The position numbers and the translations under genes are program-made. The notes beneath the pieces are model-generated. The model made no database searches and had not been told where the DNA came from. It was given only the letters and a program-made list of their open reading frames with translations. A stretch of 64,000 bases of DNA from Eledone cirrhosa (Eukaryota), in contig OZ024741.1 of NCBI GenBank assembly GCA_964016885.1, positions 152,520,001 through 152,584,000 on the forward strand, read 5' to 3'. Positions 20,924 through 21,541 of the stretch are shown here, in pieces. Numbering within the stretch: the first letter of the stretch is position 1; every line of letters starts with the position of its first letter.

Positions 20924-20972
<49 letters not shown>

Positions 20973-21120
20973 ATGCTTTGGGAGGGTCATGTTGCCAATA
21001 AGAAACACACACACCAGTTGCTTTCACTCCAATTTATTATAAATTAAATTTATAAATTTAAGAATTTATAAATTCCCGGTTGGTTGGTTGGTTCCATAAT
21101 CGGACGGTTGTTCATATATT

Positions 21121-21163
21121 GTCAAAGTTCTTTCGTCACACATTCTGTGACCTCTTCAGTGAC
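21121..21163 (-). ncRNA. Minimal hammerhead ribozyme (left arm)
   Basis: GUCA CUGAAGA G GUCACA-GAAUG-UGUGAC GAAA GAAC UU UGAC. Confidence 0.75.
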
Positions 21164-21275
21164 TGGGGATTCTTTTCTTTGTTTTGTGCCTCTCCTTTGT
21201 TCTGTCCTACACACAAAAACAAGATGGCGTAGGACAGAACAAAGGAGAGGCACAAAACAAAGAATAGAATCCCCA

Positions 21276-21318
21276 GTCACTGAAGAGGTCACAGAATGTG
21301 TGACGAAAGAACTTTGAC
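21276..21318 (+). ncRNA. Minimal hammerhead ribozyme (right arm)
   Basis: Same motif on the plus strand. Confidence 0.75.
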
Positions 21319-21541
21319 AATATATGAACAACCGTCCGGTTATGGAACCAACCAACCGGAAATTTATAAATTCTTAAATTTATAAATTTAATTTATAATA
21401 AATTGGAGTGAAAGCAACTGGTGCGTCTGTTTCTTATTGGCAACATGACCCCCCCCCCCCCAAAGTATAACAATATCGGTTTCAACACACGTTTTCAGAT
21501 AAAGTATCTTGCTAAACAAATTCAGAGATATAGACATACAC

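What the first reader, a model, noticed from the sequence alone, without database searches (positions are those of the whole stretch)
20966..21530. RT-less perfect fold-back with a hammerhead in both polarities
Seen: two ~245-bp pLTR halves head-to-head with an 18-nt loop and no coding sequence, inserted in TA repeats. The autonomous-type partner is in the same window (50706-53358). A transcript from either strand contains one ribozyme plus its exact antisense, giving a rod-like RNA superficially like a viroid. Inference: either an extreme PLE 5'-inversion/truncation product or a self-propagating non-autonomous fold-back retrozyme. It should also be a long-dsRNA source for ADAR or Dicer that could silence its own family.
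Basis: partly seen in the sequence, partly recalled or inferred. Interest (0 to 1): 0.75.

Follow-up and report, generated by a model that had tools for sequence, protein, structure and literature searches.

The report
Twin-ended stub of Penelope retrotransposon
This hairpin is a real but ordinary short insertion of a very abundant Penelope-like jumping gene, one of hundreds of similar hairpins with many different centres; it was likely made by copying the element's RNA twice from opposite DNA strands, and it is very unlikely to be a self-spreading viroid-like element.

Summary
The fold-back is real but imperfect (7 mismatches, 2 indels in 240 aligned bp), and one arm carries an extra tail of about 55 nt. 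Both arms are the end (pseudo-LTR, pLTR) of a Neptune/Nematis-type Penelope-like element (PLE), so the hammerhead-like motif appears twice by duplication; in the predicted RNA fold it is buried in duplex. The window 'partner' is a dead, 5'-truncated copy. The genome holds 24,161 exact copies of a pLTR-end 30-mer and 444 fold-backs centred at this spot; 50 examined show 45 different loop strings. This breakpoint recurs at 12 of 30 fetched loci, scattered over subfamilies. So it is neither a one-off nor a clonal retrozyme. In a position-ordered sample, 43 of 72 insertions are two-armed; 37 of 39 with both ends pair one short with one tailed end, and the loop lies on either arm (15 vs 14). Best model: twin target-primed reverse transcription from two start sites on one RNA, run-off near a YY1-like promoter motif, then end joining. 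Transcription, editing and small RNAs are untested. The anatomy is in print; this scan noted the same model before on other DNA.

The parts
20926..20968 (.). (TA)n target tract, left
20967..21210 (-). Left arm: pLTR copy with the SHORT outer end (no tail)
21121..21163 (-). Hammerhead-like motif in left arm (same motif as in the right arm)
   Evidence: pattern scan
21209..21210 (.). 2-nt microhomology at the junction
   Evidence: L001 overlap 2
21211..21228 (+). 18-nt loop: ordinary pLTR sequence belonging to the right arm; sits in the family's 5'-end hotspot
21220..21229 (+). YY1-like motif; its minus strand CGCCATCTTG equals 10 of the 12 letters of the tested mouse L1 Tf motif. Promoter role inferred
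   Evidence: sequence; PMC11602158 passages
21229..21475 (+). Right arm: pLTR copy up to the short-end position
21276..21318 (+). Minimal type I hammerhead-like motif: stem I 4 bp, CUGAAGAG, stem II 6 bp, GAAA, 2-bp helix III with a non-palindromic 2-nt loop, predicted cut after CUU at 21314
   Evidence: activity untested
21445..21530 (+). First codons of the PLE ORF (start disturbed by a poly-C expansion); pLTR end plus tail
21476..21530 (+). Tail (LONG end), present on this arm only
21546..21671 (.). (TA)n tract, right
50707..53358 (+). Same family, two-armed insertion: inverted tailed pLTR 50707-51206 plus a 5'-truncated, broken RT-EN ORF (51207-52821) plus sense pLTR with short end (52903-53358). 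Not autonomous
55882..56352 (+). Same family, single tailed pLTR fragment

Best explanation
The fold-back is one short, RT-less insertion of an abundant Penelope-like retrotransposon, likely written by two reverse transcripts primed from opposite strands of a cut (TA)n site and joined head to head. Steps: (1) the family's endonuclease cuts both strands in (TA)n (target shown; cutting inferred from the anole PLE in vitro); (2) one strand primes at the 'short' site and the other at the 'long' site about 61 nt further, both inside the first ORF codons (two fixed ends shown; priming inferred), probably on the same RNA (inferred from shared rare variants); (3) here both copies ran about 245-270 nt and stopped in a hotspot beside a YY1-like motif, likely the RNA 5' end (hotspot shown; transcription start inferred); (4) the two cDNA ends were joined over 2 nt of microhomology (shown); (5) the arms have since diverged by about 3% (shown). 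It is likely a dead end: the ribozyme motif is predicted to be sequestered and no clonal progeny were found.
For: 24,161 exact pLTR-end 30-mers. 444 fold-backs with 2-32 nt between the anchor motifs, control 0; 45 distinct loop strings in the 50 listed; 40 of 50 have exactly one tail, 0 have two, 10 none detected. Position-ordered sample (first 100 matches on C1; 95 arms recovered, 2 unassigned): 43 of 72 insertions two-armed; of 39 with both outer ends, 37 short+long, 2 long+long, 0 short+short (35/1/0 automatic; three resolved by eye; p = 1.4e-9 against 50%). Short arm longer in 17, tailed arm longer in 16, 2 ties; total length continuous from 149 to 3,824 bp. Loop on short arm 15, on tailed arm 14; 7 symmetric, 12 undetermined of 48. 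At least 1 nt microhomology in 23 of 34 junctions without insertion vs 42% null, p = 0.003; 14 of 48 have inserted or unmatched letters. Arms of one insertion share on average 1.0 rare variant vs 0.08 between insertions (31 pairs). 10 of 46 arm 5' ends fall in a 16-nt window at the YY1-like motif, corrected p = 7e-4. Anole PLE protein cuts and extends both strands and starts at two internal sites that bracket the tail (PMC11167929).
Against: No biochemistry or RNA for this family. The window's own arms share no rare variant at the 8% cut-off, and the partner arm is the nearest neighbour in only 19 of 62 arms, so 'one RNA' is a family-level inference; gene conversion could also give sharing. 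Microhomology of 2 nt or more alone is not significant (9 of 34, p = 0.057). Two long+long insertions exist. In vitro the anole protein showed no difference in start site between strands, so why one short pairs with one long is unexplained. The hotspot test rests on 46 arms (85 collected; 25 ran beyond the 620-nt references, 14 were skipped; two loci give two arms each) and could reflect an RT pause in the CA/A-rich tract instead of a cap.
Confidence: 0.72

Rival explanations
1. Self-priming or snap-back: one strand (an antisense RNA, as proposed for rotifer Penelopes, or a cDNA) folds on itself and is copied back.
For: Published hypothesis for head-to-head palindromes (PMC3846280, passages); small loops and near-symmetric junctions are frequent; arms would start out identical.
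Against: A folding strand always owns the loop, so the loop should sit on one end class; observed 15 vs 14 and 17 vs 16 in longer insertions. A strand starting at the short site cannot template the tail.
Confidence: 0.1
2. The stub arose from a longer two-armed copy: RT crossed the stem of its hairpin transcript, or the centre was deleted after insertion.
For: Read on the minus strand the stub equals the 50707-53358 element minus its middle; short microhomologies fit repair.
Against: Stem crossing would also give short+short products (0 of 39) and needs read-through RNAs to end exactly at element ends; deletion does not explain why arms with very different partners, or none, end in the same hotspot. 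It still needs a mechanism for the longer two-armed copy.
Confidence: 0.12
3. Self-propagating, non-autonomous fold-back retrozyme.
For: The same breakpoint recurs at 12 of 30 fetched loci; the stub keeps the RT start sites and the YY1-like motif.
Against: Those 12 (one pair is a local duplicate) fall in three loop variants that have 3,200, 5,005 and 411 exact-motif copies genome-wide; the 8 same-pattern loci with an arm in the tree do not group; tail on either arm; other junctions are as frequent; no tandem array; ribozyme predicted to be paired away.
Confidence: 0.04
4. Assembly or library fold-back artefact.
For: Palindromes between microsatellites are artefact-prone; no read spanning the locus was seen.
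Against: Arms differ at 7 positions and 2 indels and only one has the tail; hundreds of loci obey the same end rule.
Confidence: 0.02

Closest known systems
Endonuclease-positive PLE insertions with inverted pLTR and tail (PMC3846280, PMC8557442; passages read)
   Same: Head-to-head inverted 5'-truncated copy; tail on one end only; pLTR and tail include the first ORF codons; palindromes at the junction; microhomology joins; (TA)n targeting; N-rich ORF segment (L107).
   Different: Tail about 61 nt rather than 30-40; both arms truncated inside the pLTR; here short+long pairing is counted as near-obligatory and independent of which arm is longer, which argues against the published self-priming idea.
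PAc (Poseidon of Anolis) in vitro mechanism (PMC11167929; parts 1-2 of 4 read)
   Same: Two RT start sites inside the ORF start that bracket the tail; both DNA strands cut and extended at AT-rich sites; hammerhead in the pLTR, dispensable for insertion.
   Different: Different clade (linker Zn-finger present here); the parts read do not derive inverted copies from the two-strand extension and report no strand difference in start site.
Minimal type I hammerheads of metazoan PLEs (PMC4209133; passages)
   Same: Conserved core, extra base after position 9, G-C closing helix II, vestigial helix III that would need a dimer.
   Different: Loop 3 is AA, not palindromic; triplet CUU (CUA in another subfamily); the two copies are inverted, so they cannot form the tandem dimer.
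Metazoan non-LTR retrozymes (PMC7229834 passages; bioRxiv 10.64898/2026.07.22.740005 part 1 of 5)
   Same: Short, RT-less, type I hammerhead, PLE-related.
   Different: Retrozymes are head-to-tail tandem repeats giving circles; this is one inverted pair with one ribozyme motif per transcript.
L1 twin priming (recalled, no call); hammerhead viroids with a ribozyme in both polarities (recalled, no call)
   Same: Two primers and microhomology joining (L1); rod-like RNA (viroids).
   Different: L1 twin priming inverts non-overlapping RNA parts, whereas here the same part is copied twice; viroids carry two distinct active ribozymes on a replicating circle.

Membership tests
EN+ Penelope-like element (parent family) | Single ORF with RT and C-terminal GIY-YIG endonuclease | tested here: met
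   L107:1388-4888, 1,167 aa open: YPSID, YSRYVDD, then VVY...YIGET with R, H, E, N by eye. Pfam: weak RVT_1 (E 4e-4, below cut-off) on the window fragment, no family on L107.
EN+ Penelope-like element (parent family) | pLTRs, direct and inverted, with optional tail overlapping the ORF start | tested here: met
   L106 tandem pLTR-ORF-pLTR; L107, L108, L110 inverted; tail encodes ORF residues.
Neptune/Nematis type | CX2-5CxxC linker before a C-terminal EN with CCHH motif | tested here: met
   C-x4-C-x2-C linker and two Cys inside the GIY-YIG core in L107 against the definition in PMC8557442. Excludes Naiad/Chlamys, Penelope/Poseidon, Hydra by motif.
Neptune versus Nematis | RT phylogeny | not tested
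Minimal type I hammerhead | Core CUGANGA-GAAA-NUH with helices I and II | tested here: met
   commonest form in 94 of 183 motif copies, with CUA forms in 54. Fold z only -0.75; no Rfam hit.
Minimal type I hammerhead | Self-cleavage | not testable with these tools
   Arm 5' ends do not cluster at the predicted cut.
Non-LTR retrozyme | Head-to-tail tandem units each with a hammerhead | tested here: not met
   Single inverted pair; definition.
Non-LTR retrozyme / self-propagating element | Clonal amplification of one unit with a fixed junction | tested here: not met
Non-LTR retrozyme | Abundant circular RNA | not testable with these tools
   No RNA run available for this stretch.
Viroid-like RNA with ribozymes in both polarities | Distinct, foldable ribozyme in each polarity of one replicating RNA | tested here: not met
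   Same motif duplicated; fully paired in the MFE and centroid structures of the plus strand. Definition recalled.

The most novel reading that the evidence does not exclude
These stubs are a fossil record of the PLE insertion mechanism: one RT complex cuts both strands of (TA)n and copies the same RNA twice with a fixed division of labour (one strand from the short start site, the other from the tailed site), and run-off at the capped 5' end makes ~500-bp hairpins by the hundreds. This would explain inverted pLTRs and the one-sided tail together and replace the self-priming hypothesis.
Probability: 0.6. Interest if true: 0.55.

Novelty: new member of a known kind. Interest (0 to 1): 0.3.

Why it matters
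The locus itself is ordinary. The family-wide counts bear on an open question, how PLEs make inverted pLTRs and a one-sided tail: they favour twin priming over self-priming and give a sharp prediction for the existing in vitro system. About 60% of sampled insertions in this >24,000-arm family are inverted repeats, a large potential source of double-stranded RNA if transcribed, which is untested.

Tried and rejected
Rfam: no hammerhead among the 150 listed matches; miRNA hits are generic hairpin matches below threshold. Pfam found nothing on the full ORF. Sequencing runs: no RNA holder listed; contigs of four runs were too fragmented to span the locus; one 53-nt contig piece crosses the junction with 1 mismatch and fewer than 31 letters per side, so it is not counted. 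ADAR footprint in DNA copies: A>G in 5 of 25 shared rare and 18 of 172 private changes with A at 41% of columns, and no arm of 86 with 4 or more rare A>G or T>C changes, so no enrichment in this sample. Twin hairpins beside the two ends (lead e1-8804881): no obvious repeated hairpin in two MFE folds (weak test). The apparent 5'-end peak at -80 was an alignment artefact and vanished with closer references. Ribozyme cut site as a 5' end: no cluster. One search was a failed script. Neighbouring 10-kb stretches L215 and L216 were fetched but not analysed, so host-gene context is unknown. A look-up by sequence in earlier findings was empty. Paper searches returned no paper whose title, abstract start or read passages state twin priming for PLEs; subscription papers (e.g. 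Arkhipova 2006, Evgen'ev 2005) and supplements were not seen and may contain it.

Full report
Observation. The window shows (TA)n, a minus-strand arm (20967-21210), an 18-nt loop (21211-21228), a plus-strand arm (21229-21475), an extra stretch of about 55 nt, and (TA)n again. The RNA folds at -404 kcal/mol, z = -46. The arms are not a perfect palindrome: 7 mismatches and indels of 4 and 6 nt in 240 aligned positions. Each arm holds a minimal type I hammerhead-like motif that Rfam did not list. The arms match two other copies in the window, 50707-53358 and 55882-56352.

Parent family. [quoted passage not shown] By the definitions in Craig et al. (PMC8557442, passages) this is a Neptune/Nematis-type PLE, the type linked there to (TA)n targeting. 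In the tandem copy L106 the pLTR end and the extra stretch are the first codons of the ORF, so the extra stretch is the PLE tail. The window partner lacks about 578 codons, has a stop with a frame change and a truncated endonuclease: it is a dead two-armed insertion, not an autonomous helper.

Is the junction unique or clonal? Neither. The junction pattern with up to 2 mismatches has 34 matches; of 30 fetched, 12 have the same breakpoint (one pair duplicated), 2 are ambiguous, 4 have the pattern behind a longer antisense stretch, and 12 are other structures. The same-breakpoint loci fall in loop variants that have 3,200, 5,005 and 411 exact-motif copies genome-wide, the 8 same-pattern loci with an arm in the tree do not group, and their tail lies on the loop arm in 4, on the other arm in 3, and was not detected in 5. 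Meanwhile 444 fold-backs have their centre in this same region; the 50 listed, all fetched, show 45 loop strings, and other breakpoint pairs are as common. The junction is a recurrent join at a hotspot.

The family rule. A 30-mer near the pLTR end has 24,161 exact matches. I fetched loci for the first 100 listed (C1, first 20.8 Mb); 95 arms were recovered and 2 could not be assigned. They form 72 insertions, 43 two-armed and 29 single (6 of which run out of the fetched stretch). Of 39 two-armed insertions with both outer ends, 37 pair a short end with a tailed end, 2 have two tails and none has two short ends. Lengths run continuously from 149 to 3,824 bp, so the 565-bp window element is mid-range. 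Either arm can be the longer (17 vs 16; loop 15 vs 14 among the short fold-backs). Junctions show modest microhomology (23 of 34 with at least 1 nt, p = 0.003; at least 2 nt not significant) and 14 of 48 carry extra letters. Arms of one insertion share rare variants about 13 times more than arms of different insertions, although the window's own arms share none and the partner is the nearest neighbour in only 19 of 62 arms. Ten of 46 arm 5' ends lie in 16 nt at a motif whose two family variants (ATCTTG, ATTTTG on the minus strand) match the two YY1 site forms quoted in PMC11602158 (passages); in human L1 such a site near the 5' end sets the transcription start.

Mechanism. The anole PLE protein cuts and extends both strands at AT-rich DNA and starts at two sites inside the ORF start that bracket the tail (PMC11167929, parts 1-2 read). 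Joined with the counts above, the best model is twin target-primed reverse transcription: one cDNA from the short site, one from the long site, likely on one RNA, each stopping anywhere but often at the likely RNA 5' end, then end-joined. Shown: ends, target, breakpoints, counts. Inferred: priming, single RNA, transcription start. The published self-priming idea (PMC3846280, passages) predicts that the loop stays with one end class and is disfavoured. Stem crossing or later centre deletion predicts short+short products or no hotspot and is disfavoured but not excluded for this one copy.

Ribozyme and dsRNA. The motif fits the minimal PLE hammerheads that work weakly and as tandem dimers (PMC4209133, passages). 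In this fold-back any transcript makes the antisense arm first, and the plus-strand fold pairs the whole motif, so cleavage is predicted to be blocked. Retrozymes are head-to-tail arrays, which this is not. Transcription, editing and small RNAs could not be examined; no A>G excess was seen in 86 genomic arms.

Comparison and verdict. The anatomy (inverted 5'-truncated copy, tail on one end, junction palindromes) is described for PLEs. I found no statement of obligatory short+long pairing or twin priming in five searches, with subscription papers and supplements unseen. I reached this reading before consulting earlier notes (notes); the scan has recorded the same model in this and other genomes, which is not independent evidence. 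Interest 0.3.

Noticed in passing
window 53743-54110: Fold-back of an unrelated family (144-bp arms, 98%, 10-nt spacer) with one arm ending at (TA)n and the other carrying a ~70-nt extension: same short+long anatomy.
   Followed up: partly
window 13778-14712: Another two-armed insertion (205-bp arms, 97%) with a ~60-nt extension on the right arm only.
   Followed up: partly
window 10811-13515: Inverted 236-bp repeats 2.2 kb apart, right end at a long (TA)n, left end extending further; probably another PLE family.
   Followed up: partly
window 10039-10134, 30717-30765, 50620-50690: A short repeat family (..GACGGCTGAGCTC..) beside (TA)n, partly as small hairpins; also seen beside loci L018 and L019.
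   Followed up: no
window 50360-50393 and 61396 (-): Further minimal hammerhead-like motifs of other families; the one near 50360 has GAAA changed to AAAA.
   Followed up: no
window 37389-42988: L1/Tx1-like element with an ORF1-like region in two frames and an open 1,161-aa endonuclease-RT ORF (label by eye).
   Followed up: no
window 33421-36957: Three ~1.46-kb tandem copies (98%) of the 3' part of a non-LTR element with a restriction-like endonuclease motif (label by eye).
   Followed up: no
window 6520-8136 (-) and 57741-59698 (-): Two other PLE-like ORFs (RT plus GIY-YIG), different from the family studied.
   Followed up: no
window 28253-28886: 35 copies of an 18-bp unit at 97%, open in several frames.
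   Followed up: no
L107:1388-4888; L106, L109, L110: The family's ORF has a long Asn/Thr/His-rich segment before the RT, recalling the N-rich inserts of rotifer Penelopes.
   Followed up: no
L002, L013, L015, L018: Junctions where a short piece of the antisense arm is repeated before the join, suggesting slippage during end joining.
   Followed up: no
L120, L121, L122 (G000:C1 217.40-217.61 Mb): Three same-junction fold-backs about 100 kb apart with nearly identical arm statistics, probably a segmental duplication; two were dropped from the junction counts.
   Followed up: partly
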